This document shows positions 27,392 through 50,823 of a DNA stretch of 64,000 bases, piece by piece. The position numbers were made by a program, and so were the translations under genes. This DNA comes from an uncultured delta proteobacterium (lineage in GTDB: Bacteria > Desulfobacterota > Binatia > Binatales > Binataceae). The stretch covers positions 23,240 to 87,239 of the forward strand of contig CAVWMQ010000008.1 of assembly GCA_963756155.1 (NCBI GenBank). The letters are read 5' to 3'. The notes beneath the pieces were generated by a model that saw only the letters and a list, made by a program, of their open reading frames with translations, was not told the origin of the DNA and did not search any database. Position 1 is the first letter of the stretch. Every line of letters begins with the position of its first letter.

Positions 27392-28405
<1,014 letters not shown>

Positions 28406-28411
28406 GCCGCA

Positions 28412-29527
28412 ATGAAAATCTGGGCCATCATGCGTCGCGACCTGCGCAAGCTGCTGCGCAATCCAATCACCTTGGTCGCGGTCATCATTATGCCGATGGT
28501 CTACCTGGTGATTATCGGCAACTCGTTCGAGGGGCAGCTCAAGCATCTGCCGCTCGCGGTGGTGGTACAGGATCACGGCGTGTTCGCGCGCCGCGTGATC
28601 GAACAGTTGCAAGCACTCGAGGCCGGGCCCAAGACCATCGACCTGACTTTCGTTTCCGATCCGGGACGCGCCATCAACGAAGTCCGCGACGGCGTCTACA
28701 AAGGGGTGATCGTGATTCCCCCCAACTTTAGCCACGACGTAGCCGAAGGACGCATCGGCGAGATCGGCTTGTTTGACGACAACGTCGACTCGGTGAGTTC
28801 GGCGGGACTCGAGGGCGTGATCTCGGCGGCGGCCGCATCGGTGCGCGTGAGCTTCGTCACCGCGCGCGAGCCCAAGCTCGATCAAATCTCATTTCGGCCG
28901 AGCTGGCTGTTCCCGTATGTCGACTACGATCGCTCGCTGATTCCGGGCGTGATCGTGATGGCGTTGTTCACCGGGTCGTTGATGTCCGGTGTGTTCAACT
29001 GGGTAATGGACAAATTCATGGGGGTGACGGAGTGCTACCTGGTAACGCCGCTCTCGCGATGGGACATTGCGGGCGGGATTCTATGCAGCGGGGTCACCGT
29101 CACCAGTATCGCCGGGATCATCGTGATGTTCATGGGGCTGCTGATCACGCGCGGCCATATCGAGGGCGGTTTGCCCGCGTTGGCCACGCTCATCGTGATC
29201 ATAGTTCTGAGCGCGATGGGATTGCTGGCGATGACGTTCTCGATGCTGGGGCGCGCGGGGCATCCGCGCCTGGTAGGAACTTTCTCGGGCTTCCTCAACG
29301 TGATCCTGTTTTTTCCCAGCGGCGCTATCTATCCGGTCGAAAGTTTTCCCCCGTGGCTCAGATCCTTCGCACGCTATAATCCGGAGACGCACGCGGTCAG
29401 CGCCATCAAGCAGATACTGTTCAAGGGGGCAGACTTCGCCGCGGTCACCAACGACATCGCATACCTGGCGGTGTTCACGGGAATCATGCTGGTGCTGGCG
29501 AGCATGTCGTTCCGCCGAACGCTGTAA
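28412..29527 (+). CDS. ABC-2 family transporter permease
   Basis: N-terminal TM, large periplasmic loop, 5 C-terminal TM helices; typical ABC-2 topology. Confidence 0.75.
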   Translation: MKIWAIMRRDLRKLLRNPITLVAVIIMPMVYLVIIGNSFEGQLKHLPLAVVVQDHGVFARRVIEQLQALEAGPKTIDLTFVSDPGRAINEVRDGVYKGVIVIPPNFSHDVAEGRIGEIGLFDDNVDSVSSAGLEGVISAAAASVRVSFVTAREPKLDQISFRPSWLFPYVDYDRSLIPGVIVMALFTGSLMSGVFNWVMDKFMGVTECYLVTPLSRWDIAGGILCSGVTVTSIAGIIVMFMGLLITRGHIEGGLPALATLIVIIVLSAMGLLAMTFSMLGRAGHPRLVGTFSGFLNVILFFPSGAIYPVESFPPWLRSFARYNPETHAVSAIKQILFKGADFAAVTNDIAYLAVFTGIMLVLASMSFRRTL

Positions 29528-35089: not shown

Positions 35090-35155
35090 ACTCGCATCGC
35101 GATCGCGAGCGTCGCGTCTTGACTGCCCAGGTCTGGCGCGCGGCATTATGGATCC

Positions 35156-35656
35156 ATGAGCGCAATCGAAATCATCAAGCGTCGGCTCAAGGAAGATCGC
35201 GTTCCGGAGACGCCTGACGAAATCTCGCAAAAGAAAAAGCGGCCGCGTGAAGTCGCCTTCATGGACGTCAACCTGTGCTTCCCGTGCGGCAAGTGCCCGG
35301 AGTTTTGTCCGGTCCAGTGCATCGAGTACCTGCGGCCGGGGTCGGTCCCGAACCGCGGTGTTCAGCCGGTGCAGGACCGTTTTCAGGAGTGTATCGGGTG
35401 CTACATCTGCGTCGAGGTCTGCGCGCTGCTCACCGACTATGATGCGGTTCGAATGTACGATAGCAACCTGGTCGAGGATGTGCTGGGCGTGAAAATTACC
35501 GACCACGTGCCGCCAGAACCGGTTCCCGCCGAGCCGTACGAGGAGTTTTTCTCAGAGGGCGGACTCTATCGCCATCTCGGCAAGGGCTCGCGCATCCGCG
35601 AGAAGATGACGGCCGAGGAACGCGCGATCTTCGCCCGCGAGCGAGTGCGCAGCTAG
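35156..35656 (+). CDS. 2x[4Fe-4S] ferredoxin-domain protein
   Basis: CFPCGKCPEFCP and CIGCYICVEVC cluster-binding motifs. Confidence 0.6.
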   Translation: MSAIEIIKRRLKEDRVPETPDEISQKKKRPREVAFMDVNLCFPCGKCPEFCPVQCIEYLRPGSVPNRGVQPVQDRFQECIGCYICVEVCALLTDYDAVRMYDSNLVEDVLGVKITDHVPPEPVPAEPYEEFFSEGGLYRHLGKGSRIREKMTAEERAIFARERVRS

Positions 35657-35821: not shown

Positions 35822-36472
35822 ATGGAACGACAGGCCAGGCGCGCGCAAGTGCTGCGCCATGCCAAGCGCATCTTCGCCCGCAAAGGCTACCATCGCACCA
35901 ACGTCGCGGACATCATCGCGCGCGCGCGCATCGCGCGCGGGACCTTCTACCTCTACTTCGAGAACAAGAAGGACCTTTTCGAGGAGCTGTTGGAGCAGGT
36001 GGTAACCGAGCTGACCACCCGGATTCTGCGCCTGCGCGTCGGACCCGACGAGGCCAGCCCGGTCGAGCAGTTGCGCGAGAATCTTCGCCGCGTGCTGACC
36101 TACGTTCTGGCCGAGCGCGAGCTGACCGACATCCTGCTCAATCATTCGGTTGGGTTCGATCGCGAGCTCGACGCCAAGATTCGCGATTTTTATGATCGCA
36201 TCGCGGCGATGATTCAGCGTTCGCTGGATCTCGGCATCCAGATGGACCTGGTGCGCAAGTCCGACACGCGCGCGGTCTCGTATTGCATCCTGGGAGGAAT
36301 CAAGGAAGTCATTGGACTTTTGTCGCGCAATCATCCGACGGACATCACGGCACTGGTCGAGGAGATCCTGGACTTTGGGCTGCGCGGCGTGGCCCGTCCC
36401 GAGCTGTTGGAAGCGGTCCGAAACCTGGATGCGCCCCCTGGGGAGGGCGGCTTTTTTATTACCCGTAACTAG
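35822..36472 (+). CDS. TetR/AcrR family transcriptional regulator (first gene of lipid operon)
   Basis: RAQVLRHAKRIFARKGYHRTNVADIIARARIARGTFYLYFENKKDLF. Upstream GATAGC-N6-GCTATC palindrome at 35789-35806 and a TTGACA hexamer at 35768. Confidence 0.8.
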   Translation: MERQARRAQVLRHAKRIFARKGYHRTNVADIIARARIARGTFYLYFENKKDLFEELLEQVVTELTTRILRLRVGPDEASPVEQLRENLRRVLTYVLAERELTDILLNHSVGFDRELDAKIRDFYDRIAAMIQRSLDLGIQMDLVRKSDTRAVSYCILGGIKEVIGLLSRNHPTDITALVEEILDFGLRGVARPELLEAVRNLDAPPGEGGFFITRN

Positions 36473-36478
36473 ACTGAC

Positions 36479-37273
36479 ATGTCAGTTTATCGAAAAATTT
36501 CGCCTCGCGACGGACGCCAGACGCGTCGTCGGCGCGCCGCCTTCTACGACCTCGACGGCACCCTGGTCGATCTGAACTTGATCCACATGACGCTTTTCAT
36601 ACTGGCCAATATCGGCGAATGGAGCGCGCGCATTTCCTACCTGCTCAGTTTTGTTGTGCGGGTGCCGCGGCTTTACCTCGCCGAGCGTGACGATCGCCGC
36701 AAGCTCAACACCGTCTTGTTCGAATCGTTCAAGGGAGTGTCGCACGACCGGCTGGTCGAGCTTGGCGAGGAATATTGCGATCGCATCCTGATCAAGCATC
36801 TGTTCCCGCGCGCGATTGAGATGCTCGAGGCGAATCGCGCGGCCGGGCTCGAGCCGGTGCTGGTTACAGGCTCCCCGGATTTCATCGCCGCTCCCCTCGC
36901 CCGTCATCTCGGCGTCGCCGATTTCGCGGGCAACCGGCTGGTAATCAGCCGCGGCTGCGCGACTGGCCGGCTCGCGGAACCGGTGATGGCCGGCGAGGAC
37001 AAGGCGCACTGGTGCGAGGATTACGCTGCGCAGCGAGGAATCGATCTCACCGAATGCTGGGGCTACGCGGATTCGAACTACGACATGCCGTTCCTGGCCG
37101 CGCTGGGTCATCCGGTGGCCGTCAATCCGGATCGCAAGCTCAGAGCCGCCGCGATGAGCCGTCACTGGCCGATCATTCACTTCGAAATGGACGGGGCCGA
37201 CGCGACGCCCTCCGACGACGACGAACTCAAACTGAGCGAACTGGAACGGAGCGAATCGGATGGCGCGTCCTGA
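36479..37273 (+). CDS. HAD-IB family hydrolase (phosphoserine-phosphatase-like)
   Basis: AAFYDLDGTL (DxDxT), ...VTGSPDFIAAP..., GYADSNYDMPFL motifs. Confidence 0.75.
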   Translation: MSVYRKISPRDGRQTRRRRAAFYDLDGTLVDLNLIHMTLFILANIGEWSARISYLLSFVVRVPRLYLAERDDRRKLNTVLFESFKGVSHDRLVELGEEYCDRILIKHLFPRAIEMLEANRAAGLEPVLVTGSPDFIAAPLARHLGVADFAGNRLVISRGCATGRLAEPVMAGEDKAHWCEDYAAQRGIDLTECWGYADSNYDMPFLAALGHPVAVNPDRKLRAAAMSRHWPIIHFEMDGADATPSDDDELKLSELERSESDGAS

Positions 37274-38900
37274 GTCGAAGATTAAGGAGCTGAAGCCCGC
37301 CGATCTGCGCCACGAGGTCGGCGCGCGCCGCGATCTGGTCGTTACGCTTAATCGTCGCTCCGAGCGACGCCTGATTGCCTACGGTGACGATTTCATGTTC
37401 GAGAAGTTGCCGGTCGGCACTCGCGTGATCTATCCACCGCCGCCGCTCGAGGCGCTGCCCGACCCCGACCAGGCGATTCGCTATGCGCTCCTGCGGCCCG
37501 AGAACGCCGACCCGCTGTTCGCGCAGTTGAATCCCAATATGCGCGTGACCGTCGCGATCGACGACATCAGCCTGCCACTGCCCCCGATGCGCCGGCCCGA
37601 TATCCGCGAGCGCGTCCTGAACCAGGTGCTGCAGACGCTAGCCGACTATGGCGTCGACGACGTGCATCTCATCATCGCGACGTCGTTGCATCGCCGCATG
37701 ACCGAGGCTGAAATTCGCCGCGCCGTCGGCGAGCGCGCCTTCAAGCAGTTCTGGCCCGACCGCCTCTATAACTTCGACGCCGAAAATCGCGCCGAGCTCG
37801 CGATGCTGGGCAAGACCGACCATGGCGAGGAAGTGTGGCTGAGTAAGCGTGCCGTCGAATCCGATCTCGTCATCTATGTGAACATTAACCTCGTTCCGAT
37901 GGACGGCGGCCACAAGTCGGTTGCCGTCGGCCTCGCGCCGTATCAGAGCCTGCGCCACCATCACAACGCCGCGACGCTTCGCGACAGCCACTCGTACATG
38001 GATCCGACCCGCTCGGCGCTCCATCGCTCTGCCGATCGAATGGGCAAAATCGTGAACGACAACGTAAACGTGTTCACCGTCGAGACCGCCGTCAACACGC
38101 GCATGTATGGCGGGATGCTCGACTTTCTCCACAAGAACGAAGACCGCTTCACCGACTGGGATCGCACGCGGCTTGGCGGCTTCAAGTGGACTCTCAAAAA
38201 TCTCTCCAACGACTTGCGGCGCAAGGCGTTGCAGAATTATTCCTCACCGTACGGGATGACCGGCGTGTGGGCCGGTGAGACCGAGGCCGTCCATCAGAAG
38301 GCGCTCGCCAAGGTCTTCCAGCAATACGCGGTGCCGGTGAAGGGCCAGTCCGACATCCTGATCGTCGGCGTTCCGTTCATCTGCCCTTACAACGTCAACT
38401 CGATCATGAACCCGGTCCTCGTGCAGTGCACCGGGCTCGGCTACTTGTTCAATATGTATCGCGGCAAGCCGCTGGTGCGGCCCGGCGGCACCGTGATCAT
38501 ATGCCACCCGCTGCGCGACGAGTTCCATCCCGAGCATCACCCGAGCTACATCGAGTTCTTCCATCGATGCCTCGCTGAAACTACCGACGCGATCGAACTC
38601 GAGCGCGCCTTCGAGCACGAGTTCGCCCGCAACCCGACCTACATTCACATGTATCGCTACGGCCACGCGTACCACGGCGTGCATCCGTTCTACATGTGGT
38701 ATTGGGGCGAGCCCGCGCGCCAGCACGTCGGACGCGTGATCGCCGCCGGATGCGAAGAGCCGGAAGTCGCGGCGCGGCTCGGATGGGATTCCGCTGACAC
38801 CCTTGACCAGGCGATCGCGATGGCGACTTCCGACCTCGGCCGCTCGGCCACCATCACGTATCTCCATTTGCCGCCAATAGTGATTGCCGATGTCGAGTAG
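37260..38900 (+). CDS. LarA-like / DUF2088 (lactate racemase N-terminal domain) family protein
   Basis: 546 aa; VTVAIDDISLPLPP...DVHLIIATSLHRRMTEAE...LVPMDGGHKS pattern resembles nickel-pincer-dependent racemase/epimerase family. Assigned from memory, needs HMM check. Confidence 0.45.
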   Translation: MARPESKIKELKPADLRHEVGARRDLVVTLNRRSERRLIAYGDDFMFEKLPVGTRVIYPPPPLEALPDPDQAIRYALLRPENADPLFAQLNPNMRVTVAIDDISLPLPPMRRPDIRERVLNQVLQTLADYGVDDVHLIIATSLHRRMTEAEIRRAVGERAFKQFWPDRLYNFDAENRAELAMLGKTDHGEEVWLSKRAVESDLVIYVNINLVPMDGGHKSVAVGLAPYQSLRHHHNAATLRDSHSYMDPTRSALHRSADRMGKIVNDNVNVFTVETAVNTRMYGGMLDFLHKNEDRFTDWDRTRLGGFKWTLKNLSNDLRRKALQNYSSPYGMTGVWAGETEAVHQKALAKVFQQYAVPVKGQSDILIVGVPFICPYNVNSIMNPVLVQCTGLGYLFNMYRGKPLVRPGGTVIICHPLRDEFHPEHHPSYIEFFHRCLAETTDAIELERAFEHEFARNPTYIHMYRYGHAYHGVHPFYMWYWGEPARQHVGRVIAAGCEEPEVAARLGWDSADTLDQAIAMATSDLGRSATITYLHLPPIVIADVE

Positions 38901-41900
38901 CAACAACGGTAACGGCAGCGGCCGCAACGGAAACGGCCACGGCAACGGGCGCGTGAGCGCCTCCGCGATGCCACCGCTGGAGCAGGTGCTGCGCAAGCGG
39001 CGGATCCTGCTGACTGGCGCGACCGGATTCCTCGGCAAAGTCTTTCTCGAGCTGCTCCTCCAATGGCATCCCGAGATCGAACGCGTCTATTTGCTGATTC
39101 GCGGCGACCGCCGCTCCAGCCAGGGCCGCTTCCGCCGCGAAATTCTCGACTCACCGGTGGTGGCACCGCTGCGCGAGCATCTTGGCGCCCACTTCGATTC
39201 CTACATCGAAAGCAAAATCGCGGTCGTCTCCGGGGACATTACCAATGAAGGCCTGCTGAGCGACGACGCCGAGCCTTTCAAGCGCGGCAGTCTCGACGCG
39301 GTCGTGCACAGCGCCGGCCTGGTGAACTTCGAGGCGTCGCTGGAGAAAGCGCTGGCAGTCAACACCATCGGCGTCGCCAACGTGATCGAGTTCTGCCGCA
39401 AGGTCGGCGCCGCGATGATCCACGTCTCGACCTGTTACGTGGCAGGCAACGCCGACGGTCATCGCTTCGAGGACGATCTGCCGGAGAACTGGTGCCCTGC
39501 GGGCCGGCGCAAATTCAGCCTCGAACGCGAGGTCCGCGACGCGAGCGCGGCGATCGCTCGAGTCGAAGCCGAGTCGCGCGATCAGTTGCGCCAGTCCGAG
39601 CTGCACGCCTCCGCCGAAGAGGACGGCCAGTTCCTCGACGGCCACGAGACCGCATTCGAGCATCGGCGCAAGCGATGGGTCGAAGATCGCCTAAAGGACA
39701 TCGGGCGCAAGCGGGCGCTCAGCTGGGGATGGCCCAACACCTACAGCTACACCAAGAGCCTCGGCGAACAGCTCGTGCTGGCAGCGCGCGATGCGATCGA
39801 CGTTACTGTCGTGCGCCCCGCGGTTATTGAGAGCGCGCTGCGCGACCCCTTTCCCGGATGGAACCAGGGCGTCAACACCAGCGCGCCGCTGACCTACCTG
39901 GCTGGCCGCGGCTACCGCTTCTATCCGGCGAAAGCCGAGCTGGTTCTTGACGTGATACCGGTCGATCTCGCCGCGCACGCGATGATTCCGATCCTCGCCG
40001 CGACTCTCCTCAAGCGCCAGAAGCCCATCTACCAGCTCTGCACCTCGGATCGGAATCCGCTCCCGATGTACCGGCTGGTCGAGCTCACCGGCCTTGCCAA
40101 TCGCAACGAGCATCGCAAGCACGGCGGCCCGATGGGCCGCCTCGCGCGCCATCTGGAGGCCACCGTCGTCTCGCAGACGACCTACGACCTCGCGAGCCTC
40201 ACGCTTCCCAGGCTTCTCAAGCAGGGCGCGGAACTCGCGCGCAGTGTGCTTGGTGAGGATTCCGAGCGCGGCCGCAGGCTCGTGGCCGGTGCCGGCGCGC
40301 TCGAAGAGACCATGGACCTCGCGCGCTCGCTGGTTCAGGTCTACCGCCCCTACATCCAGGAGCTGGTCTACACTTTTCACTCCAACAACATCCGCGCGCT
40401 CTACGCCTCGATTCGCGAGGCCGACGCCGCCAACCATCCCTTCCATCCCGAAAAGATCGACTGGCGCGACTACTGGATAAACGTGCATATGCCCGGGCTG
40501 CGCCGGCACATCTATCCGCAGCTCGACCTTCACACCCGCGGCCGTCCGCGCCTGCTCCCGCGCCATCGCACGCTGGTTGATTTGCTCGAACGCGCCGCGG
40601 AGCGTTACGGCGCCGACACCGCGTTGATGGCGCACAAGCCGTCCGGCGAGCGCACCTCGGTAACTTACCGTGAGCTGCGCGACCACGCGCGACGCGGCGG
40701 TATCGTGCTCGCGCAGCGCGGGATCAAGCCCGGCGATCGTGTCCTGCTGATCAGCGAGAACTCGCCGGATTGGGTGCTCGCGTTCTTTTCGATTCTCGAA
40801 GCCGGCGCTATCGCGGTGCCGCTCGACCATCTGATTTCCGCCGAAGAGCTCGCGCCCATCTGCAAAATCGCCGAGCCGCGCGCCGCCCTCCGCTCCGCGT
40901 CCGTCGCGCGCCGCCTGGGCAGCGCGGTCCGCGACACGGTCGCGAAAATCGTCGAGCTTGATCTCGCCGAGCTGAGCCGCCCGTTCCTGCTCCGCGCCGA
41001 CGCCGCAGCACCGCCCACGCCCGACCGCAAGACCGTCGCCTCGATTGTGTTCACCTCGGGCACCACCGGCGCACCCAAGGGCGTGATGCTCACCCACGGG
41101 AATTTCTGCGCCGAAGTCTCGATGCTGGGCCGCGTGTTTGCGCTGGCCGGCGACGACCTGGTGCTCTCGCTGCTTCCGCTCCATCACACTTTCGAGTTCA
41201 CCTGCGGGATGCTGCTGCCGCTTGCCAGTGGCGCGACCGTCGCCTACCCGCTCGAGGTCGACGCGAAAAATCTCTCGCGCACGCTCGCTGATATCCGCCC
41301 CACCGCGCTCATTGGTGTGCCCGCGCTGTGGGAAGCGGTGCATCGTCGCATCGTCGACGAGGTCGAATCGCGCGGACCGTTCTTTCACGCCGGGTTCAAC
41401 AATCTGCGCGACCTCAATCGGCGCCTCGATCGCGACTCGGGTCTCAATCTCGGCTCGATCCTGTTTCGCCAGGCGCATTCGGCTCTCGGCGGCAGGCTCA
41501 AGCTCGCCGTCAGCGGCGGTGCCGCCCTGCCCCACCGCGTTGCCGAGTTTTTCAATGACATTGGAATCCGGCTGCTCGAGGGCTACGGCCTAACTGAGGC
41601 GGCTCCCGTGCTATGCGCGGCGCATCCCGACGAGCCGTTGAAGCTGGGCTCCGTCGGCAAGCCGCTCAATGGCGTCGAAATCAAACTCGCCGCCAACGGC
41701 CACGAGAACGGCGAGAGCATCATCGGCGAGATACTGGCCCGCGGCCCAAACGTGATGGCCGGCTACTATAGGAACCAATCCGCGACCGACGAAGTTATCC
41801 GCGACGGATGGCTGCATACCGGCGACCTCGGCCGCTTCGACGAGGACGGACGGCTCTCCGTTGTCGGCCGCGCCAAGGAAGTCATCGTCGATTCGGGCGG

Positions 41901-43344
41901 CAACAACATCTATATCGACGAGCTCGAAGAAGCCTATGGCCGCTCCCATTACGTGAAGGAGATGGCCGTAGTGGGCCTCACTGTCGGACAGGGTGAGCTG
42001 GTCGCCGCGTTGGCTGTGCCAGCGTATGCGCGCGGTGAGAGCCGCCGCTCGGTCGAGGACAAACTCCGCAGCCACTTCGAGAAGGTCGGCCAGGCGCTGA
42101 GTCCGCACAAGCGAATCAGGATCCTGCGCTTCACCGACGCCGACCTGCCGCGCACGCGTACCCGCAAGATCAGGCGCGCCGAAGTCGTCGCGATTGTCCG
42201 CCGGATGCTCGAGAGCAAGCCCGAGCAAGCCGCCTCGGCCAGCGCCGAGGTCGAGCCGTGGCTCGCCGAGACCCTCGCCGCAGTCTCCAGCGAGCCAGTC
42301 GCCATCACTCCCAGCACCCGCCTGATCGAAGACCTGGGTCTCGACTCGCTGGCGATGGCGGAACTCGGTGAGCATATCGCCGTGCGCGCGGGACGCGACA
42401 TCGGCCCGGAAGAGATGGCCAATCTGCGCACCGTTGACGACCTGCAGCGGCTCGCGCTTGCGGCCAACGGCAACGGCAGCCGGCATCGGATGCCTTCCTA
42501 CGCGCGCTTCGCGGAGCCGTATACACCGAAACTCCCCCGGCCGCTCCGATGGCTCGGCACCACGATCGCCCGCAATGCGCAGCGCGCCGCGTTCGAGTCG
42601 TGGCTCAAGCCAAAGATCCTCGGACGTGGGAACATCCCCGCCAATCGCAACGTGCTGGTGGTCGCCAATCATTCGAGCCACGTCGATTTCGGGTTGGTCG
42701 GCTACGCACTCGCAGCGATGGGCAACGATCTGCGCGTGCTCGCCGCCAAGGATTATTTTTTCAACACCCCGGCGCGCCGTTATATCGCGACTAACTTCAC
42801 CTCATTGATTCCCTTCGACCGCGAGCGTGCGCAGCTCGAGTCGCTCGACGACGCGCTCGCAGAGCTGAGCGCGGGCCGCAGCGTATTGATGTTCCCTGAA
42901 GGCACCCGCTCGGCCGACGGCGAGATGCAGGAATTCAAGAGCGGCGCCGGCTACCTGGCGCTGCGCAGCGGATGCGACGTGCTGCCGATGCATATCAGCG
43001 GGACCTTCAAGGTCCTCGGTAAAGGCAGCCTGGTCCCGCGCCGCGCACCAGTCGAGGTCCGCATCGGACGCGTGATTCCCAGCGCCGAGTTGCGCAACCT
43101 GGCCGAGAGCTCGGAAGGGATGGGCGCGTACCGGAAGCTCGCCGACTTCATGTACGAGGCGGTGATCGCGCTCAAAAGCGGGCGCAGCGTGCGACGCATC
43201 GGTCTGCGCGCCGCCGAAGCAGTGGTGCTGGCCCCGCAACTTCCGGCGCCCCAGACTCAGGAGCAGTCACAGGAACCGCCGAGCGCGAGGCCTCACAAGA
43301 CGCATGCGACGGGCACTCATGCGCGCGGACACGCCAAGGGTTGA
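38884..43344 (+). CDS. four-domain lipid biosynthesis enzyme: fatty acyl reductase, AMP-dependent acyl ligase, acyl carrier protein and 1-acyl-sn-glycerol-3-phosphate acyltransferase (ElbD-like)
   Basis: 1486 aa. N-terminal ILLTGATGFLGKVFLELLL...YLLIRG...VVHSAGLVNF...STCYV (NAD_binding_4/FAR). Mid region FTSGTTGAPKGVMLTHGNF...EGYGLTEA...GWLHTGDLGRFDEDGRL (AMP-binding). LIEDLGLDSLAMAELGEHIA (PP-binding serine). C-terminal VVANHSSHVDFGLV...FPEGTRSADGE (PlsC HX4D/EGTR). Confidence 0.85.
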   Translation: MPMSSSNNGNGSGRNGNGHGNGRVSASAMPPLEQVLRKRRILLTGATGFLGKVFLELLLQWHPEIERVYLLIRGDRRSSQGRFRREILDSPVVAPLREHLGAHFDSYIESKIAVVSGDITNEGLLSDDAEPFKRGSLDAVVHSAGLVNFEASLEKALAVNTIGVANVIEFCRKVGAAMIHVSTCYVAGNADGHRFEDDLPENWCPAGRRKFSLEREVRDASAAIARVEAESRDQLRQSELHASAEEDGQFLDGHETAFEHRRKRWVEDRLKDIGRKRALSWGWPNTYSYTKSLGEQLVLAARDAIDVTVVRPAVIESALRDPFPGWNQGVNTSAPLTYLAGRGYRFYPAKAELVLDVIPVDLAAHAMIPILAATLLKRQKPIYQLCTSDRNPLPMYRLVELTGLANRNEHRKHGGPMGRLARHLEATVVSQTTYDLASLTLPRLLKQGAELARSVLGEDSERGRRLVAGAGALEETMDLARSLVQVYRPYIQELVYTFHSNNIRALYASIREADAANHPFHPEKIDWRDYWINVHMPGLRRHIYPQLDLHTRGRPRLLPRHRTLVDLLERAAERYGADTALMAHKPSGERTSVTYRELRDHARRGGIVLAQRGIKPGDRVLLISENSPDWVLAFFSILEAGAIAVPLDHLISAEELAPICKIAEPRAALRSASVARRLGSAVRDTVAKIVELDLAELSRPFLLRADAAAPPTPDRKTVASIVFTSGTTGAPKGVMLTHGNFCAEVSMLGRVFALAGDDLVLSLLPLHHTFEFTCGMLLPLASGATVAYPLEVDAKNLSRTLADIRPTALIGVPALWEAVHRRIVDEVESRGPFFHAGFNNLRDLNRRLDRDSGLNLGSILFRQAHSALGGRLKLAVSGGAALPHRVAEFFNDIGIRLLEGYGLTEAAPVLCAAHPDEPLKLGSVGKPLNGVEIKLAANGHENGESIIGEILARGPNVMAGYYRNQSATDEVIRDGWLHTGDLGRFDEDGRLSVVGRAKEVIVDSGGNNIYIDELEEAYGRSHYVKEMAVVGLTVGQGELVAALAVPAYARGESRRSVEDKLRSHFEKVGQALSPHKRIRILRFTDADLPRTRTRKIRRAEVVAIVRRMLESKPEQAASASAEVEPWLAETLAAVSSEPVAITPSTRLIEDLGLDSLAMAELGEHIAVRAGRDIGPEEMANLRTVDDLQRLALAANGNGSRHRMPSYARFAEPYTPKLPRPLRWLGTTIARNAQRAAFESWLKPKILGRGNIPANRNVLVVANHSSHVDFGLVGYALAAMGNDLRVLAAKDYFFNTPARRYIATNFTSLIPFDRERAQLESLDDALAELSAGRSVLMFPEGTRSADGEMQEFKSGAGYLALRSGCDVLPMHISGTFKVLGKGSLVPRRAPVEVRIGRVIPSAELRNLAESSEGMGAYRKLADFMYEAVIALKSGRSVRRIGLRAAEAVVLAPQLPAPQTQEQSQEPPSARPHKTHATGTHARGHAKG

Positions 43345-44291
43345 TGATCGCGCGCGCAAGGGGGGATTGCCGTCGCGCGATTCGCGCCGCGGTCGCCTCG
43401 CTCTCGTTCGCGATCATCTTTTTCCGCGCCACGAACGGATTCGCCTGGGACAGTGCGACCCATAGGTTGATCACCCGGCTAGCGGTCCGTGCGCTTCCCA
43501 AGTCTCCGCTGAGTGTCGAATTCATGTTGAACGAAGACCACCTCGAACGGTACTCAGTGGAACCCGATTCGGTCCTGAAGAAGGAATACGGCCACAAAGA
43601 AGAAATTCGTCACTATATCGATCTGGAAAACCTCGGCCCCGATCCTTTTTCCGTGTTGAACCCCAATTTCGCTGCGATGCAGCAGCGGTTCGGCGAGCTG
43701 CTCGACCGGACGGGTACGCTCCCGTGGACGATAGACGTAATGGCCGCCAAGCTCCCGGGAGAGTGGATGCGCAACGACTGCACCGACGTGATTCGCGACG
43801 CCGGCTACTTGGCCCACTACGTCGGCGACGCGAGTCAGCCGCTGCATACTACCGCGAACTGGGACGGTTTCGATCGCGGCGATCGCGGCCTCCATGCGCG
43901 CATCGAGCTTGCGGTCGATCACAATGTGGAATTGCTCGGCGCACTCACTTCGGGCCAGGTGCACGCCGCAGACATTACCGCGGTGTGGCCGACGGAAATC
44001 ACAGAGATTCGGCAGGCGCACCAATACGTCGCCAAATTTATCGATGACGATCGCCAGTTGCGCCATCTGGCTCGGAGCGGCGACACCGACGCCTATGAAA
44101 AGGCGCTCGTCAGGCGCGACTTGCAGCTCTTTTCCGGCCAGATTGCATCGGCAGCTTCCACGCTCGCATCGATATGGCTGTTCGAATGGCGCAAGGCGGG
44201 AAGCCCGACGGGATGTGCAAAACGACTCCCTTCGCGCCACGGCAGACGCGATGGCCACGACGGCCGCTTACTGGATTACCACCCGTTCTGA
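43341..44291 (+). CDS. secreted zinc-dependent hydrolase, S1/P1 nuclease or phospholipase C family
   Basis: Signal peptide; WDSATHRLI, HYIDLEN, HYVGDASQPLH metal-ligand pattern. ATGA overlap with the upstream gene. Confidence 0.55.
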   Translation: MMIARARGDCRRAIRAAVASLSFAIIFFRATNGFAWDSATHRLITRLAVRALPKSPLSVEFMLNEDHLERYSVEPDSVLKKEYGHKEEIRHYIDLENLGPDPFSVLNPNFAAMQQRFGELLDRTGTLPWTIDVMAAKLPGEWMRNDCTDVIRDAGYLAHYVGDASQPLHTTANWDGFDRGDRGLHARIELAVDHNVELLGALTSGQVHAADITAVWPTEITEIRQAHQYVAKFIDDDRQLRHLARSGDTDAYEKALVRRDLQLFSGQIASAASTLASIWLFEWRKAGSPTGCAKRLPSRHGRRDGHDGRLLDYHPF

Positions 44292-44308
44292 TAGTTAAAC
44301 TTGGACCA

Positions 44309-44845
44309 ATGGTAGACTGGTTCAGCAAACGCCCAGACGGACATGCGCGCCCCACCCGCCATTGGGGCCGGCCCGCGGTCGCCGAGATTACGCCCACGCT
44401 ACTGATCGGCGAATATCCGCGCGACGAGGATGTCGACTGGCTCAAGGAAACTCACGCCGTCACCGCGGTGCTCAATCTCCAGGACGAAGAGGATCTGCGC
44501 GTCAACGGCATCGACATCGACGCGATGCGCGAGCGCTACGCTGAAAACGGTATCAAGCTGGTGCGCACTCCCATCCCCGACGGCAGCGCCGATGCGATGA
44601 AGGACCATCTCAAGGTCGCGCTCGACGATCTGCACGAATTGATCGGGGCGCAGGAGCGCGTATTTTTACACTGTAACGGCGGCGTCAATCGCGCGCCCAC
44701 CCTGGCGATCGCATATCTGCGCGCGTTCGGCGGGCTGTCGCTCAACGAGGCGCAGGCGCACGTCAAAACGCGGCGCGCATGCGGTCCGTTCATGACCGTG
44801 CTCGAGGAATACTTCGGGCCGCGTGACCTGAAGCCGGACGCATAA
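44309..44845 (+). CDS. dual-specificity phosphatase family protein (PTPMT1-like CX5R)
   Basis: HCNGGVNRAPT active-site P-loop; about 178 aa. The sequence as I read it shows an in-frame stop near 44288 that the ORF track (44174..44845, read through) contradicts, so coordinates near 44275-44300 may be off by 1 nt. Confidence 0.7.
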   Translation: MVDWFSKRPDGHARPTRHWGRPAVAEITPTLLIGEYPRDEDVDWLKETHAVTAVLNLQDEEDLRVNGIDIDAMRERYAENGIKLVRTPIPDGSADAMKDHLKVALDDLHELIGAQERVFLHCNGGVNRAPTLAIAYLRAFGGLSLNEAQAHVKTRRACGPFMTVLEEYFGPRDLKPDA

Positions 44846-44885
44846 CTTGGCAATCAGCGGCACCGCGAGAACTTTTCCCGAGACC

Positions 44886-45602
44886 ATGCCGAGGCGGCGT
44901 TTCCTGCTGGCCTGCGCGTGGGGCGTTCATCTGTACACCGCGCTCGGCGCGGTCGCGGGGCTGCTTGCGATTTACTTCGCGAGCCGATGGGAATTCCGCG
45001 CGTCATTCATCGCGATGGGCGCGGCGACTTTTATCGACTCGAGCGACGGGCCGCTCGCGCGCCTGGTCAACGTGCGCGCGCGAGTTCCATCCTTCGACGG
45101 CGCGCTGCTCGACAACATCGTCGACTACCTGACCTACACCGTAGCGCCCGTGTTCCTGATGATCGAAGCGGGAATCACGCCGCCAGGATGGATCGGGCTC
45201 GGCCTCGCGTGTTTCGTGATGCTGGCCAGCGCCTATGGCTTCTGTCAGACCGCAGCCAAGACCGACGACCATTATTTTCTCGGTTTCCCGAACTACTGGA
45301 ACCTCATCGCGTTCTATCTCTATTGCCTTGGCCGCAGCCCTACGTTCAACGCCGCGATCCTTGCAACCTTTGCCGTGCTGGTCTTCGTGCCGATCAAATA
45401 CATTTATCCCAATCGCACAGTCGCGCTCCGCCCGCTGACGCTCACCCTCGGGATCATCTGGGCGGTTATCACGATCGCGATGCTCGCGATGCTGCCCAGC
45501 GTGAATCCGGTGCTGCTGTTCGCCTCGCTGAGCTTCATCGCCTACTACCTGATCGCCTCTTTCGCACTCCACGCGCGCTCCGCGCTCGCCACACTGCGAT
45601 GA
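44886..45602 (+). CDS. CDP-alcohol phosphatidyltransferase family protein (Pcs/PgsA-like)
   Basis: DSSDGPLARLVNVRARVPSFDGALLDNIVD matches the D-G-x2-A-R...G-x3-D-x3-D motif; 6 TM helices. Start ATG 44886 or TTG 44847. Confidence 0.75.
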   Translation: MPRRRFLLACAWGVHLYTALGAVAGLLAIYFASRWEFRASFIAMGAATFIDSSDGPLARLVNVRARVPSFDGALLDNIVDYLTYTVAPVFLMIEAGITPPGWIGLGLACFVMLASAYGFCQTAAKTDDHYFLGFPNYWNLIAFYLYCLGRSPTFNAAILATFAVLVFVPIKYIYPNRTVALRPLTLTLGIIWAVITIAMLAMLPSVNPVLLFASLSFIAYYLIASFALHARSALATLR

Positions 45603-45615
45603 ATCGCAAATCGCA

Positions 45616-47415
45616 ATGAGCGCTTCCGCGTCCGGCCCGTTGACATCCCGCGCGCCCGTCGAGCCCTGGCTCGAAACTATCGACACCGACTCCCCGCTCC
45701 TTCTGATCGCGCCGCACGGGGGACGCGCGGAGCCTGCGACGCGCTCGATGCTGAATCCCAAGGTCAACGATCTGCACACTGCGGACATCACGCGCGAGTT
45801 GGCGCGACGCCTGGACGCGGCGGCACTGATCAACGCGGGAATGGATCGCAATCGGCTGGACTGTAACCGGATTCAGCAACTGCTCGCGCGCGCCCCGTGG
45901 CTGCTCGAGATGATCGCCGATCGGCTCGAACAAATCGTCGACCGGCACGGCCACGCGGTGGTCCTGCTGATTCACGGCTGGAACATCATCGAGCCGCGCG
46001 TCGATTTTGGACTGGGACTGCGCAACATCGGTGGCGAACTGCATCCGCCCGGCACCGCGTGCGTCTCCGCGTGCGACGAATTCATCCACGGACCGCTCGC
46101 GCACTTTGCCGAGCGGCTTCGCGAGCACGGAATCCGGCCTAGCTTCGGTATGCGTTACCCGGCAGGCGGACTACAGAACCTGGTGCAGGCATTTACCGGG
46201 CGCCACCGCGACAATCCGGCGGAGCCGCTCAGACGCATCGCCGCGATCGCGGAGCGCGCGCAGGTCGACGCGGCACAGCTCGAATTGTCGGTCGCGCTCC
46301 GGATGCCGGGGACGCTGCGCGCGCGATGCCTCGATGCGATCGAAACGTCGTTCGCATCCAACGGACACGCGCCGTCGCATCATGACCTCGACACGCCATC
46401 GCGTCCGGGAATCGTCGTAAACCGAACCCCGCGGCCGCGTTTGGCGCCCCCGAAGTCCCCCGCGGCTGCATCGGCGCCCGCTCCGCCAGCACGCGTCGGA
46501 GTCGAGTTCTTCGACCCTGCCACGCGCATCGGCGCGATGGCCAGCTTCGATATTGGAACCGGCTTCGGCGCGCGAATCATGATGCTCCTGGGCGGGCGGC
46601 GGGTCGCGCTCTTCACTGGGGAGGGCGCCGTCACGTGCAAGGCAGGCCGGATTGCGCTCGGACCTCTCGCACTTTCCGAGGATGGCCGCGAACTCCTGCT
46701 AACGTTCAAAGGACCCGCGGTAGTCGTTCCGGATTCATCGGCGTACTTGAGCATCGAGCGCGCGCTCGCCTCGGGCCGGCTCGATGGCGCGGCCGAGGTC
46801 TCGGCGCGGCTCAAATTTCCCGGCCGCAGAATCAATCTCGACGAAATCACCTCCGGCGCTGGCGCGCGCGACGCGAGCGGGCAGGCTTTCTTCGGAAGAC
46901 TCACCGGGACCGTCTCGGTCGACGGCATGACCAGCCCGATCGATGCGGTCGTGCGCGCGGGAGTTTCATTCACTGGGCTCGGGCCGCAAAAGTTCGTCGC
47001 GCGCCGGATGATATGGGCGTCCTTACCGGACGGCGTGTCACCGTCGGCGCTCGAGCTGCGGGTCGTTAAGACTGACGACGGCACGAATCAAAGTGCACGG
47101 GCGCTCGGACCGGTCGGATGGTCGCCATGCGAAATCAATCAGCTCGTCCTCGAGACGGCGTCGGTCGAAGAGCCGCCGCATCAACTCTCGGCGCTACTGA
47201 CGGTTGACGGCGCCCAGCCCAAGGCGCTCATCGGCCAGGTCGAGAGCTTCATCCCGCTCTCACGGCCGGGCCCCGAGCAGACGCGCATCTACACGTCGCT
47301 GGGCTTCGCGCGCTTCAGCTTCGGCGGGCGAGCGGGAGCAGGCATGTTCGAATACTCGCGGCGCGCGGAGACGGTGCTGACCGCGGCCGAATCCGACGAC
47401 GAAGACTCCGACTGA
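45616..47415 (+). CDS. N-formylglutamate amidohydrolase-like hydrolase domain protein with about 300-aa uncharacterised C-terminal domain
   Basis: LLLIAPHGGR...DLHTADITREL...RNRLDCNR...VVLLIHGW resembles the FGase family; last gene of the lipid operon. Confidence 0.4.
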   Translation: MSASASGPLTSRAPVEPWLETIDTDSPLLLIAPHGGRAEPATRSMLNPKVNDLHTADITRELARRLDAAALINAGMDRNRLDCNRIQQLLARAPWLLEMIADRLEQIVDRHGHAVVLLIHGWNIIEPRVDFGLGLRNIGGELHPPGTACVSACDEFIHGPLAHFAERLREHGIRPSFGMRYPAGGLQNLVQAFTGRHRDNPAEPLRRIAAIAERAQVDAAQLELSVALRMPGTLRARCLDAIETSFASNGHAPSHHDLDTPSRPGIVVNRTPRPRLAPPKSPAAASAPAPPARVGVEFFDPATRIGAMASFDIGTGFGARIMMLLGGRRVALFTGEGAVTCKAGRIALGPLALSEDGRELLLTFKGPAVVVPDSSAYLSIERALASGRLDGAAEVSARLKFPGRRINLDEITSGAGARDASGQAFFGRLTGTVSVDGMTSPIDAVVRAGVSFTGLGPQKFVARRMIWASLPDGVSPSALELRVVKTDDGTNQSARALGPVGWSPCEINQLVLETASVEEPPHQLSALLTVDGAQPKALIGQVESFIPLSRPGPEQTRIYTSLGFARFSFGGRAGAGMFEYSRRAETVLTAAESDDEDSD

Positions 47416-49086: not shown

Positions 49087-49109
49087 GATTCACGACTCCT
49101 CTTCCTATA

Positions 49110-50646: not shown

Positions 50647-50823
50647 GGCTATGTCAGGATTTCCGAGGGAGTCTACTTGTACTCGCCATGTCAAAACGAC
50701 GCAATCGGGTGTGCCGCAGCGGACGTTCCAGGCGTGTTACTTCCGGAACAAGAAAAACTCGCGGCTGATCGATTATCCACAGGCGATGGGCTGAGGTCTC
50801 CAATTTCAAGCTAAACTCGTCAC

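What the first reader, a model, noticed from the sequence alone, without database searches (positions are those of the whole stretch)
38884..43344. 1486-aa four-domain lipid enzyme (FAR, acyl-AMP ligase, ACP, PlsC acyltransferase) reminiscent of myxobacterial ElbD
One polypeptide combines an N-terminal fatty acyl reductase domain, an AMP-dependent acyl activating domain, a phosphopantetheine carrier domain and a C-terminal lysophospholipid acyltransferase domain. The known four-domain enzyme of this type, ElbD of Myxococcus xanthus, makes alkylglycerol ether lipids; the domain order here (R-A-ACP-AT) may differ from the described ElbD. It could activate a fatty acid, reduce it on the carrier to an aldehyde or alcohol, and install it on glycerol-3-phosphate. 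An ether-lipid or wax-ester-like product would be notable in this lineage.
Basis: partly seen in the sequence, partly recalled or inferred. Interest (0 to 1): 0.8.

Follow-up and report, generated by a model that had tools for sequence, protein, structure and literature searches.

The report
ElbD-type ether-lipid enzyme in Binataceae
This gene is an intact relative of ElbD, the four-domain enzyme myxobacteria need to make ether lipids, found in an uncultured Binataceae bacterium beside its usual partner genes; it is a new member of a known family, not a new kind of enzyme.

Summary
The ORF is real. It runs 38884-43344 on the + strand, and the true start is probably the ATG at 38890, giving 1484 aa. 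It carries FAR (NAD_binding_4 plus Sterile), AMP-binding, PP-binding and PlsC-type acyltransferase domains, with every catalytic motif intact.

The domain order is the same as in described ElbD, not different. The protein aligns end to end with myxobacterial ElbD orthologues: 39% identity to Corallococcus coralloides and 38% to Archangium.

The two upstream genes are the elbB (HAD-IB) and elbC equivalents. The latter is 52% identical to M. xanthus MXAN_1529. So this is the elbB-elbC-elbD core in a Candidatus Binataceae genome.

It differs from the myxobacterial operon in two ways. No elbA/elbE-type reductase lies in the window. Four Binataceae-specific genes follow instead: a Zn-PLC-like protein, a DSP phosphatase, a Pcs-like transferase, and a fusion of an FGase-like domain with a lipid-binding double barrel.

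ElbD homologues are already reported in many phyla, so I rate this a new member of a known kind, of modest interest.

One by-product is more interesting. ElbC is called "unknown function" in the ether-lipid literature, but it is a LarA-superfamily (nickel-pincer nucleotide) homologue. It accompanies the FAR and acyltransferase genes in six of the seven lineages examined and in about half the myxobacterial loci.

The parts
35822..36472 (+). TetR-family regulator, first gene of the co-directional cluster
   Evidence: Pfam TetR_N 1.5e-15 and TetR_C_24. Same position in Binataceae locus L001, 80% identity. A 6-nt gap separates it from the next gene.
36479..37273 (+). elbB equivalent: HAD-IB family phosphohydrolase
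   Evidence: Pfam HAD 6e-30. NCBIfam TIGR01490 HAD-SF-IB-hyp1 at 125.5 bits, above the 98.3 cut-off. 35-39% identical to the HAD gene two genes upstream of elbD in about 30 myxobacterial loci.
37260..38900 (+). elbC equivalent: LarA-superfamily (nickel-pincer nucleotide) homologue, groups 14/15
   Evidence: Pfam Lar_N 1.2e-35. NCBIfam NF052592 LarAH14/15/16 family at 836 bits, above the 740 cut-off. 52% identical without gaps over 383 aa to M. xanthus MXAN_1529 and 51-58% to the gene directly upstream of elbD in myxobacterial loci. His144, Lys219 and His235 align with the catalytic His, the cofactor-tethering Lys and the Ni-ligand His of LarA-type enzymes. The second catalytic His is absent, as in groups 14/15.
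38890..43344 (+). elbD equivalent: four-domain FAR / A / ACP / AT enzyme, 1484 aa from ATG 38890 (ORF opens at TTG 38884)
39010..39984 (+). ElbD domain 1a: FAR-type NAD(P)H-binding reductase domain (NAD_binding_4)
   Evidence: Pfam 9e-50. GATGFLG at aa 43-49, S180/T181, Y285-x3-K289 (numbering from Met 38890). The closest solved chain for the N-terminal part is a fatty acyl-CoA reductase, 7eoz, 1.2e-49.
40309..40512 (+). ElbD domain 1b: FAR C-terminal 'Sterile' domain
   Evidence: Pfam PF03015 6e-8, 33.2 bits, just below the gathering score of 35.4. The same domain is on record for nearly all homologues.
40585..42168 (+). ElbD domain 2: adenylate-forming fatty-acid activating domain (AMP-binding plus AMP-binding_C)
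   Evidence: Pfam 1e-81 and 5e-8. Motifs TSGTTGAPKG 722-731, GYGLTE 898-903, HTGD 976-979, GRAKE 993-997 and K1093.
42259..42444 (+). ElbD domain 3: acyl carrier domain (PP-binding) with the phosphopantetheine serine
   Evidence: Pfam 1.2e-5, 25.9 bits, above the 20.8 cut-off. GLDSL with Ser1153, conserved across the family.
42622..42999 (+). ElbD domain 4: PlsC/GNPAT-type glycerolipid acyltransferase
   Evidence: Pfam 3.9e-24. N-H1261-SSHV-D1266 (HX4D) and FPEGTR 1335-1340; NH.SH.D and PEGTR are invariant in all 32 aligned family members.
43341..44291 (+). Zn-dependent phospholipase C / P1-nuclease-like protein with signal-like N-terminus (Binataceae-specific addition)
   Evidence: Pfam Zn_dep_PLPC 6e-6 and S1-P1_nuclease 3e-5, both just below their cut-offs. 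N-terminal hydrophobic stretch followed by AWDSATH. Conserved at this position in L001, 48% identity. Absent from all myxobacterial and other-phylum flanks examined. Start overlaps the elbD stop by 4 nt.
44309..44845 (+). Dual-specificity-phosphatase-fold protein (Binataceae-specific addition)
   Evidence: Pfam DSPc 6e-14. Closest solved chains are the plant glucan phosphatases LSF2 (2e-21) and SEX4, and laforin. The 178-aa start at ATG 44309 matches the L001 orthologue, 62% identity.
44847..45602 (+). Membrane CDP-alcohol phosphatidyltransferase related to phosphatidylcholine synthases (Binataceae-specific addition)
   Evidence: Pfam CDP-OH_P_transf 8.7e-5. The best NCBIfam hits are five Pcs models, all below cut-off (196 bits against 440). 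The motif DSSDGPLAR...G...D...D is visible in the translation and several hydrophobic segments are present. 73% identical in L001.
45616..47415 (+). 599-aa Binataceae-restricted protein: FGase-like N-terminal domain plus AttH/CrtC-like double beta-barrel
   Evidence: No significant Pfam or NCBIfam hit. The top 120 homologues are all hypothetical proteins; every one that carries an organism name is from Binataceae or Binatus. AlphaFold2 model: mean pLDDT 83.8, pTM 0.83. Foldseek matches the C-terminal half to 25-phosphosteroid lyase (4e-9), AttH, kievitone hydratase and fungal Diels-Alderases, and the N-terminal part to N-formylglutamate amidohydrolase 2q7s (1e-4).

Best explanation
The gene encodes the Binataceae orthologue of ElbD, the multifunctional enzyme that Myxococcus xanthus needs to make 1-O-alkyl (and, downstream, vinyl) ether glycerolipids. 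It sits in a conserved elbB-elbC-elbD core inside an eight-gene co-directional lipid cluster.

Proposed mechanism, with the status of each step:
1. The adenylation domain activates a long-chain fatty acid as acyl-AMP and loads it as a thioester on the phosphopantetheine arm of the in-cis carrier domain (Ser1153). This is inferred here from intact motifs. The review reports it as shown in vitro for M. xanthus ElbD.
2. The carrier-bound acyl group then has two fates on the same polypeptide. The N-terminal FAR-type reductase uses NAD(P)H to release a fatty aldehyde or alcohol. The C-terminal HX4D acyltransferase transfers an acyl group to a glycerol-phosphate-type acceptor (G3P, DHAP or a 1-alkyl-lyso intermediate). 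Both are inferred; neither activity has been demonstrated for any ElbD.
3. Ether-bond formation and finishing need the neighbours. ElbC is a LarA-type nickel-pincer-nucleotide enzyme that lacks the second catalytic histidine. ElbB is a HAD phosphatase. Their involvement is inferred from gene linkage in six of the seven lineages examined.
4. In Binataceae, the downstream Pcs-like transferase, DSP phosphatase, Zn-PLC-like protein and the FGase / lipid-barrel fusion would install or remodel the head group or the chain. This is speculative.
For: Four domains in the ElbD order with strong E-values. All catalytic motifs are present and conserved across 32 family members from several phyla. End-to-end colinear alignment: 39% identity to the C. 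coralloides protein that sits in a canonical SDR-HAD-Lar_N-ElbD-SDR (elbABCDE) operon, and 38% to Archangium. In a rough NJ tree the Binataceae clade falls in the same major branch as the Myxococcota proteins, apart from the Planctomycetota, Acidobacteriota and Verrucomicrobiota branch. The upstream genes are elbB and elbC equivalents: 35-39% and 51-58% identity to the genes upstream of myxobacterial elbD, and 52% to MXAN_1529. The eight-gene order is conserved in another Binataceae genome, with overlapping or at most 18-nt gaps between genes. The last gene has a fold used by enzymes that act on hydrophobic substrates. Literature: deleting elbD blocks alkyl and vinyl ether lipid formation in M. 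xanthus.
Against: No lipid data exist for any Binatota, which are uncultured. The held literature gives a counter-example: Pontiella (Verrucomicrobiota) carries an elbD homologue but no ether lipids were detected in culture. No elbA/elbE-type SDR, Zn-ADH or DAG-kinase partner lies in the 64-kb window, although elbE inactivation lowered ether lipids in M. xanthus. FAR and acyltransferase activities of ElbD have never been shown in vitro. Identity to the myxobacterial proteins is only 38-39%. I could not obtain the M. xanthus ElbD sequence itself, so the comparison uses close Myxococcaceae orthologues.
Confidence: 0.7

Rival explanations
1. Fatty-acid salvage and lysophospholipid re-acylation enzyme, like E. 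coli Aas but with a built-in carrier. The FAR domain would make fatty alcohols or aldehydes for wax esters or other neutral lipids rather than for ether bonds.
For: The A / ACP / AT part scores against the NCBIfam acyl-[ACP]--phospholipid O-acyltransferase (Aas) models, at 215.8 and 175.3 bits. ElbD acyltransferase and FAR products are not biochemically established. At least one elbD-carrying cultured bacterium shows no ether lipids.
Against: The Aas models score far below their cut-offs (1221 and 1349 bits) and match only parts of the protein. Aas has no FAR domain and no in-cis carrier. No wax synthase/DGAT gene is in the window. Colinear orthology and elbB/elbC synteny tie the gene to the one locus where genetics shows an ether-lipid role.
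Confidence: 0.12
2. An ElbD-family enzyme whose product in Binataceae is not a structural membrane ether phospholipid. It could be a specialised neutral or signalling lipid (for example an alkyl-diacylglycerol like M. xanthus TG-1) or a head-group-modified lipid made by the lineage-specific downstream genes.
For: A TetR regulator heads the cluster, and four Binataceae-only genes follow elbD, including a secreted-type Zn-PLC-like protein that could strip head groups. Sponge-symbiont elb-like clusters are also proposed to make diverse products.
Against: This is a variant of the best explanation rather than a contradiction. Nothing here identifies the product. The operon is conserved across very many Binataceae contigs, which also fits a housekeeping membrane lipid.
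Confidence: 0.15
3. An NRPS-like carboxylic acid reductase, or another non-lipid adenylating enzyme, with an unrelated C-terminal domain.
For: The A domain matches carboxylic acid reductases and NRPS A domains in the PDB at 1e-29 to 1e-35.
Against: Those matches cover only the A domain. The reductase here is N-terminal and of the FAR type (NAD_binding_4 plus Sterile; best solved match is the fatty acyl-CoA reductase 7eoz, 1e-49), not a C-terminal CAR R domain. The C-terminal domain is a bona fide HX4D / FPEGTR glycerolipid acyltransferase.
Confidence: 0.02

Closest known systems
Myxococcus xanthus ElbD (MXAN_1528) and the elbABCDE ether-lipid operon (Lorenzen et al. 2014, as summarised in PMC9131029 and PMC13012113)
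   Same: Same four domains in the same order. Colinear 38-39% identity to Myxococcaceae and Archangiaceae orthologues. Same catalytic motifs. The same upstream partners: elbB (HAD-IB) and elbC (LarA group 15, MXAN_1529).
   Different: No elbA or elbE NAD-dependent epimerase/dehydratase genes flank it or occur anywhere in the window. A TetR gene leads the cluster and four Binataceae-specific genes follow it. It has low-complexity N- and C-terminal tails. The host phylum is Binatota, not Myxococcota.
elb-like gene clusters and ElbD homologues reported in Acidobacteriota, Poribacteria, Latescibacterota, Planctomycetota, Verrucomicrobiota and others (bioRxiv 10.64898/2026.06.23.733905; PMC11868695)
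   Same: ElbD homologue with a variable set of phospholipid-related neighbours, including HAD and CDP-alcohol phosphatidyltransferase genes. Function is inferred from homology only.
   Different: The window protein belongs to the myxobacterial-type branch (38-42% identity). It is only 30-34% identical to the Planctomycetota, Acidobacteriota and Verrucomicrobiota proteins. Those loci carry DAG-kinase-like and Zn-ADH partners that are absent here. Binatota are not mentioned in these surveys.
Eukaryotic peroxisomal ether-lipid pathway: FAR1 + GNPAT + AGPS
   Same: A FAR-type reductase domain and a GNPAT/AGPAT-type acyltransferase domain supply the two halves of the chemistry.
   Different: Here the two are fused to their own adenylation and carrier domains. 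No AGPS (FAD-dependent alkyl-DHAP synthase) gene lies in the cluster or the window. A LarA-type nickel enzyme occupies the conserved partner position instead.
E. coli Aas (2-acyl-GPE acyltransferase / acyl-ACP synthetase)
   Same: It combines an adenylate-forming fatty-acid activating domain with a PlsC-type acyltransferase.
   Different: Aas has the opposite domain order, uses free ACP and has no FAR domain. The NCBIfam Aas models score about 216 bits against a cut-off of 1221.

Membership tests
ElbD (myxobacterial multifunctional ether-lipid enzyme) | Single polypeptide with FAR-like, acyl-activating (ACS/A), ACP and AGPAT-like domains, in that N-to-C order | tested here: met
   Pfam order in the window protein equals that of the C. 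coralloides orthologue and the published description.
ElbD (myxobacterial multifunctional ether-lipid enzyme) | Full-length colinear sequence homology to ElbD of Myxococcota | tested here: met
   39% identity over aa 25-1432 to C. coralloides; 38% over aa 29-1432 to Archangium. Same major branch in a rough NJ tree. The M. xanthus protein itself was not retrievable.
ElbD (myxobacterial multifunctional ether-lipid enzyme) | Catalytic residues of all four domains intact | tested here: met
   GxxGxxG, S/T, YxxxK; A3, A5, A7, A8 and A10 Lys; DSL serine; HX4D and FPEGTR.
ElbD (myxobacterial multifunctional ether-lipid enzyme) | Linkage to elbB (HAD) and elbC (MXAN_1529-type) genes | tested here: met
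   HAD-IB and the LarA homologue lie directly upstream with overlapping stop and start codons. They are orthologous to the genes upstream of elbD in at least 27 of 55 myxobacterial loci with enough upstream flank and to MXAN_1529.
ElbD (myxobacterial multifunctional ether-lipid enzyme) | Linkage to elbE (NAD-dependent epimerase/dehydratase), implicated genetically in M. xanthus | tested here: not met
   No homologue of C. coralloides elbA or elbE anywhere in the 64-kb window (tblastn, E<=1e-3), and no such Pfam hit among the scanned window ORFs. It may lie elsewhere in the genome.
ElbD (myxobacterial multifunctional ether-lipid enzyme) | Required for alkyl/vinyl ether glycerolipid formation in vivo | not testable with these tools
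   Needs genetics or heterologous expression plus lipidomics. Binatota are uncultured.
Alcohol/aldehyde-forming fatty acyl reductases (FAR; NAD_binding_4 + Sterile) | NAD_binding_4 Rossmann domain with S-Y-K catalytic residues, followed by the Sterile C-terminal domain | tested here: met
   NAD_binding_4 9e-50. Sterile is 33.2 bits, marginally under the gathering score of 35.4, but in the expected position. Best solved match is the fatty acyl-CoA reductase 7eoz, 1.2e-49. Motifs.
NRPS-like carboxylic acid reductase (A-PCP-R) | Reductase domain C-terminal to the carrier domain; no acyltransferase | tested here: not met
   The reductase is N-terminal and FAR-type, and the C-terminus is a PlsC-type acyltransferase. 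CAR structures match only the A domain.
Aas, acyl-[ACP]--phospholipid O-acyltransferase | Score above the NCBIfam equivalog cut-off; AT-then-AAS order | tested here: not met
   NF006386 scores 215.8 bits against 1221, and NF005291 scores 175.3 against 1349. The domain order is reversed.
LarA superfamily, groups 14/15/16 (neighbour gene 37260-38900) | NCBIfam NF052592 above cut-off; residues for NPN binding (catalytic His, tethering Lys, Ni-ligand His) | tested here: met
   836 bits against a cut-off of 740. His144, Lys219 and His235 align with the corresponding residues of LarA_Sp and of group 14/15 sequences. The second catalytic His is missing, as in those groups. Actual Ni/NPN loading is not testable here.
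Phosphatidylcholine synthase Pcs (neighbour gene 44847-45602) | Score above the cut-off of any of the five NCBIfam Pcs equivalogs | tested here: not met
   The best is NF045886, at 196 bits against 440. It is Pcs-related but not a certified Pcs. The CDP-alcohol transferase motif is present.

The most novel reading that the evidence does not exclude
The conserved partner ElbC, a LarA-type nickel-pincer-nucleotide enzyme with a single catalytic histidine, is the missing AGPS-independent step of the ElbD pathway. It would shuttle a hydride within a glycerol-phosphate-bound intermediate. One possibility is transient oxidation of C2 of an acyl- or hemiacetal-G3P, so that the acyl group or aldehyde can be exchanged or reduced to an alkyl ether, followed by return of the hydride. 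In Binataceae this redox-neutral route would work without the SDR or ADH partner seen elsewhere, and the four lineage-specific genes would turn the product into a distinctive ether phospholipid. Binatota, widespread in soils and sediments, would then be an unrecognised source of environmental alkyl glycerol ether lipids.
Probability: 0.2. Interest if true: 0.75.

Novelty: new member of a known kind. Interest (0 to 1): 0.35.

Why it matters
This predicts ether-lipid capacity in Binatota, an uncultured phylum with no lipid data. That is useful to people tracing the sources of bacterial alkyl glycerol ethers in soils and sediments. It remains a homology-based prediction of a kind already made for many phyla.

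The larger value is comparative. The window helps show that the invariant core of this pathway is FAR + PlsC-type acyltransferase + HAD-IB + a LarA-type nickel enzyme. The ether-lipid literature calls the last of these (ElbC) 'unknown function', and the LarA literature lists it (MXAN_1529, group 15) as 'unknown function' too. No paper in the held library connects the two. That gives a concrete candidate, testable in vitro, for how bacteria form the ether bond without AGPS.

Tried and rejected
- Exact-sequence look-ups of the window's ElbD and of the 100%-identical P0400 found no contig on record. The source record could therefore not be named, and taxonomy rests on named homologues at 93% identity and below.
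- Cluster-name look-up of ten 50%-identity representatives gave almost no taxon names.
- I guessed from amino-acid composition that P0184 was myxobacterial. It turned out to be Methylomirabilis-like, but its hit list supplied named Archangium and Cystobacterineae proteins.
- The single genome-contig scan, seeded with the Archangium protein, returned 80 Myxococcota loci but not M. xanthus itself. C. coralloides (COCOR_01539 neighbourhood) was used as the proxy.
- The primary paper, Lorenzen et al. 2014, is not held, so statements about M. xanthus biochemistry come from reviews.
- The promoter/terminator scan of the cluster gave nothing above shuffled expectation.
- PDB sequence searches found nothing for the 599-aa protein or the Pcs-like protein, and only marginal PLC hits for the 316-aa protein.
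- The carboxylic-acid-reductase and Aas readings were considered and rejected on domain order, domain type and NCBIfam cut-offs.
- No larB/larC/larE, AGPS, wax synthase, elbA/elbE, Zn-ADH or DAG kinase gene was found among the window ORFs scanned.

Full report
**Observation.** The + strand carries an uninterrupted ORF from TTG 38884 to the stop at 43344. Its GC3 of 0.82 matches the other coding regions of the window. The real start is very probably the ATG at 38890, giving 1484 aa. That ATG overlaps the stop codon of the upstream gene, and the closest homologues begin MSSSNG.... Pfam places the domains along the protein as follows:
- NAD_binding_4, aa 43-367, E 9e-50
- Sterile, aa 476-543, E 6e-8, marginally below the gathering score
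- AMP-binding, aa 568-962, E 1e-81
- AMP-binding_C, aa 1013-1095
- PP-binding, aa 1126-1187, E 1e-5, above its cut-off
- Acyltransferase, aa 1247-1372, E 4e-24

**Catalytic competence.** All expected motifs are present (numbering from Met 38890):
- Reductase: GATGFLG at 43-49, S180/T181 and Y285-x3-K289.
- Adenylation: TSGTTGAPKG at 722, GYGLTE at 898, HTGD at 976, GRAKE at 993 and Lys1093.
- Carrier: GLDSL with Ser1153.
- Acyltransferase: NH1261SSHVD1266 and FPEGTR at 1335.

In an alignment of 32 family members from several phyla these positions are invariant or nearly so. Among solved structures, the N-terminal part is closest to a fatty acyl-CoA reductase (7eoz, 1e-49). The middle part matches fatty-acid and aryl-CoA ligases. 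Carboxylic acid reductases match only the A domain.

**Source organism.** The 120 best database hits are 68-93% identical, 1411-1493 aa long, and carry the same domain set. Those that are named come from Candidatus Binataceae or Binatus, with one exception labelled Bathyarchaeia that is probably a mis-binned contig. Binataceae belong to the candidate phylum Binatota. The rest of the window is ordinary chromosome: his genes, FtsK, LolA, RNase J, SSB and others.

**Comparison with ElbD.** The review PMC9131029 describes M. xanthus ElbD as having an N-terminal FAR1-like domain followed by ACS, ACP and AGPAT-like domains. It sits in the operon elbA (NAD epimerase), elbB (HAD), elbC (unknown), elbD, elbE (NAD epimerase). 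The locus tags run from MXAN_1531 to MXAN_1527. The domain order here is therefore identical to ElbD, not different.

I could not retrieve the M. xanthus protein itself. A homology search did yield a named Archangium protein. A genome scan seeded with it returned 80 Myxococcota loci, including complete genomes of Corallococcus coralloides, C. exercitus, Archangium gephyra and Anaeromyxobacter oryzae. The C. coralloides locus has exactly the published operon layout, SDR-HAD-Lar_N-four-domain protein-SDR. Its Lar_N protein is COCOR_01539.

The window protein aligns with the C. coralloides ElbD over aa 25-1432 at 39% identity, and with the Archangium protein at 38%. An exhaustive search of 1.8 billion representatives found roughly 58 full-length four-domain clusters at 29-45% identity. 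In a rough, unbootstrapped NJ tree the Binataceae proteins group with the Myxococcota-type branch. The Planctomycetota, Acidobacteriota, Verrucomicrobiota and Latescibacteria branch is only 30-34% identical.

**Neighbourhood.** Eight co-directional genes with overlaps or gaps of at most 18 nt run from 35822 to 47415:
1. TetR regulator
2. HAD-IB hydrolase
3. LarA homologue
4. ElbD homologue
5. Zn-PLC / P1-nuclease-like protein
6. DSP-fold phosphatase
7. Pcs-like CDP-alcohol phosphatidyltransferase
8. A 599-aa protein with no database annotation

The same order occurs in another Binataceae genome at 48-86% protein identity.

The HAD gene and the LarA homologue are the elbB and elbC equivalents. 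They are 35-39% and 51-58% identical to the two genes directly upstream of elbD in at least 27 of 55 myxobacterial loci with enough flank. The LarA homologue is 52% identical, without gaps over 383 aa, to MXAN_1529.

The four downstream genes have no counterpart in any non-Binataceae locus I fetched. No elbA/elbE-like SDR, Zn-ADH or DAG-kinase homologue lies anywhere in the window.

**ElbC is a LarA-superfamily protein.**
- NCBIfam assigns the upstream gene to the LarAH14/15/16 family, at 836 bits against a cut-off of 740.
- Desguin et al. 2020 list MXAN_1529, COCOR_01539, Anaeromyxobacter and Sorangium proteins as LarA group 15, and Frankia, Acidimicrobium and Rubrobacter proteins as group 14. 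Both groups are marked 'unknown function'. They have the first catalytic His, the cofactor-tethering Lys and the Ni-ligand His, but lack the second catalytic His.
- Frankia LarAH14 showed no activity on the seven reactions assayed.
- In the window protein these residues are His144, Lys219 and His235.
- The same authors suggested that single-histidine LarA homologues might move a hydride to an adjacent site rather than racemise.
- The closest solved structures are two single-histidine LarA-like enzymes of unknown substrate.
- In the held library no paper contains both 'nickel-pincer nucleotide' and 'ether lipid', or both 'lactate racemase' and 'elbD'. The 2026 sponge preprint on elb clusters does not mention it either.

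**The linkage is broad.** A Lar_N gene lies next to the FAR and acyltransferase genes in six of the seven lineages examined:

| Lineage (locus) | Gene arrangement |
|---|---|
| Binataceae (window, L001) | TetR, HAD, Lar_N, ElbD, then four lineage-specific genes |
| Myxococcota | SDR, HAD, Lar_N, ElbD, SDR; elbB/elbC directly upstream in about half the loci with enough flank, unlinked in the rest |
| Unassigned contig (L085) | Full elbABCDE layout |
| Acidobacteriota (L084) | DAG-kinase-like, ElbD, Lar_N |
| Planctomycetota (L083) | Lar_N, DAG-kinase-like and Zn-ADH, divergent from ElbD |
| Actinomycetota-type (L086) | FAR-HAD fusion, Zn-ADH, Lar_N, PlsC-type AT |
| Dehalococcoidia-type (L087) | Zn-ADH, Lar_N, DAG-kinase-like, FAR-AT fusion, HAD, PlsY |

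The last two lack the A and ACP domains altogether. The invariant core therefore appears to be FAR + PlsC-type AT + HAD-IB + LarA homologue. A dehydrogenase (SDR or Zn-ADH) is a frequent partner, and it is missing from the Binataceae cluster.

**The lineage-specific genes.**
- The 316-aa protein has a signal-like N-terminus followed by AWDSATH, the N-terminal Trp motif of the zinc PLC / P1 nuclease family. This is my reading of the sequence, supported by weak Pfam hits.
- The DSP protein is closest to the plant glucan phosphatases LSF2 and SEX4 and to laforin, enzymes that dephosphorylate sugar phosphates rather than proteins.
- The transferase is related to phosphatidylcholine synthases but scores below all their cut-offs.
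- The 599-aa protein's top 120 homologues are all hypothetical proteins, and every one that carries an organism name is from Binataceae or Binatus. A confident AlphaFold2 model (pLDDT 83.8, pTM 0.83) shows an N-terminal domain like N-formylglutamate amidohydrolase. Its C-terminal double beta-barrel resembles 25-phosphosteroid lyase, AttH, kievitone hydratase and fungal Diels-Alderases, all of which enclose hydrophobic substrates.

Together these fit head-group installation or remodelling and chain chemistry on a lipid. The product cannot be deduced.

**Mechanism and confidence.** I regard the assignment as an ElbD orthologue as near certain (about 0.9). A role in ether glycerolipid synthesis is likely (about 0.65-0.7), because it depends on transferring genetics from M. 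xanthus across 38-39% identity. There is also at least one elbD-bearing cultured bacterium without detectable ether lipids. The steps are:
- Adenylation and loading: shown for M. xanthus ElbD, inferred here.
- Reduction by the FAR domain and acyl transfer by the AT domain: inferred everywhere.
- Ether-bond formation involving ElbC and ElbB: inferred from linkage only.

Rival readings (Aas-like salvage, a neutral or signalling lipid product, a CAR-like enzyme) are weighed in the structured fields.

**Verdict.** Because ElbD homologues are already reported from many phyla, it is a new member of a known kind with modest interest. The lead most worth following is the LarA-type identity and near-universal linkage of ElbC.

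Noticed in passing
window 37260-38900; loci L036, L083-L087: ElbC, called 'unknown function' in the ether-lipid literature, is a LarA-superfamily (nickel-pincer nucleotide) homologue. MXAN_1529 is listed as LarA group 15, also 'unknown function', in Desguin 2020. A Lar_N gene accompanies the FAR and acyltransferase genes in six of the seven lineages examined and in about half the myxobacterial loci. No paper in the held library connects the two fields.
   Followed up: yes
L086 7001-13375; L087 3090-10947: In Actinomycetota-type and Dehalococcoidia-type contigs the FAR domain is fused to HAD-IB or to the PlsC-type acyltransferase, with no A or ACP domains. These still sit next to Lar_N and a Zn-ADH. 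This suggests the adenylation and carrier part of ElbD is an optional add-on to an older FAR/AT/HAD/LarA module.
   Followed up: partly
window 45616-47415: A 599-aa protein, all of whose named homologues are from Binataceae, has no sequence-level annotation. It models confidently as an N-formylglutamate-amidohydrolase-like domain fused to an AttH/CrtC-like double beta-barrel. The closest solved fold is 25-phosphosteroid lyase.
   Followed up: yes
window 49105-50694 (- strand): The MiaB/RimO-like methylthiotransferase appears frameshifted. The UPF0004 domain is in one frame (ORF 49105-50694), and Radical_SAM plus TRAM are in another (ORF 49110-50153). The orthologue in Binataceae locus L001 is a single 466-aa gene. 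This is either an assembly error or a pseudogene.
   Followed up: partly
window 43341-44291: The Zn-PLC / P1-nuclease-like protein has a signal-like N-terminus and then AWDSATH, which would leave an N-terminal Trp after cleavage, as in zinc phospholipase C. Its start overlaps the elbD stop by 4 nt.
   Followed up: partly
window 44309-44845 and 44847-45602: A DSP-fold phosphatase, closest to the plant glucan phosphatases LSF2 and SEX4, sits immediately before a Pcs-like CDP-alcohol phosphatidyltransferase. The pairing recalls two-step head-group synthesis through a phosphorylated intermediate, as in PGP or PIP synthase followed by a phosphatase.
   Followed up: partly
window 17781-19979 (- strand): A 731-aa ORF with coding-like GC3 (0.72) has no Pfam family at E<=1e-4.
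   Followed up: no
window 25883-29527: A second TetR gene is followed by HlyD-type membrane-fusion, ABC ATPase and ABC-2 permease genes, a putative efflux operon about 6 kb upstream of the lipid cluster.
   Followed up: no
window 33536-35656; L001 3287-5490: A PQQ-like beta-propeller protein (517 aa) and a small 4Fe-4S ferredoxin lie directly upstream of the TetR-elb cluster in both Binataceae loci. Whether they are functionally linked is unknown.
   Followed up: no
protein P0115: One close homologue (71% identity) of the Binataceae ElbD is labelled 'Candidatus Bathyarchaeia archaeon' in NCBI. This is most likely a mis-binned bacterial contig.
   Followed up: no
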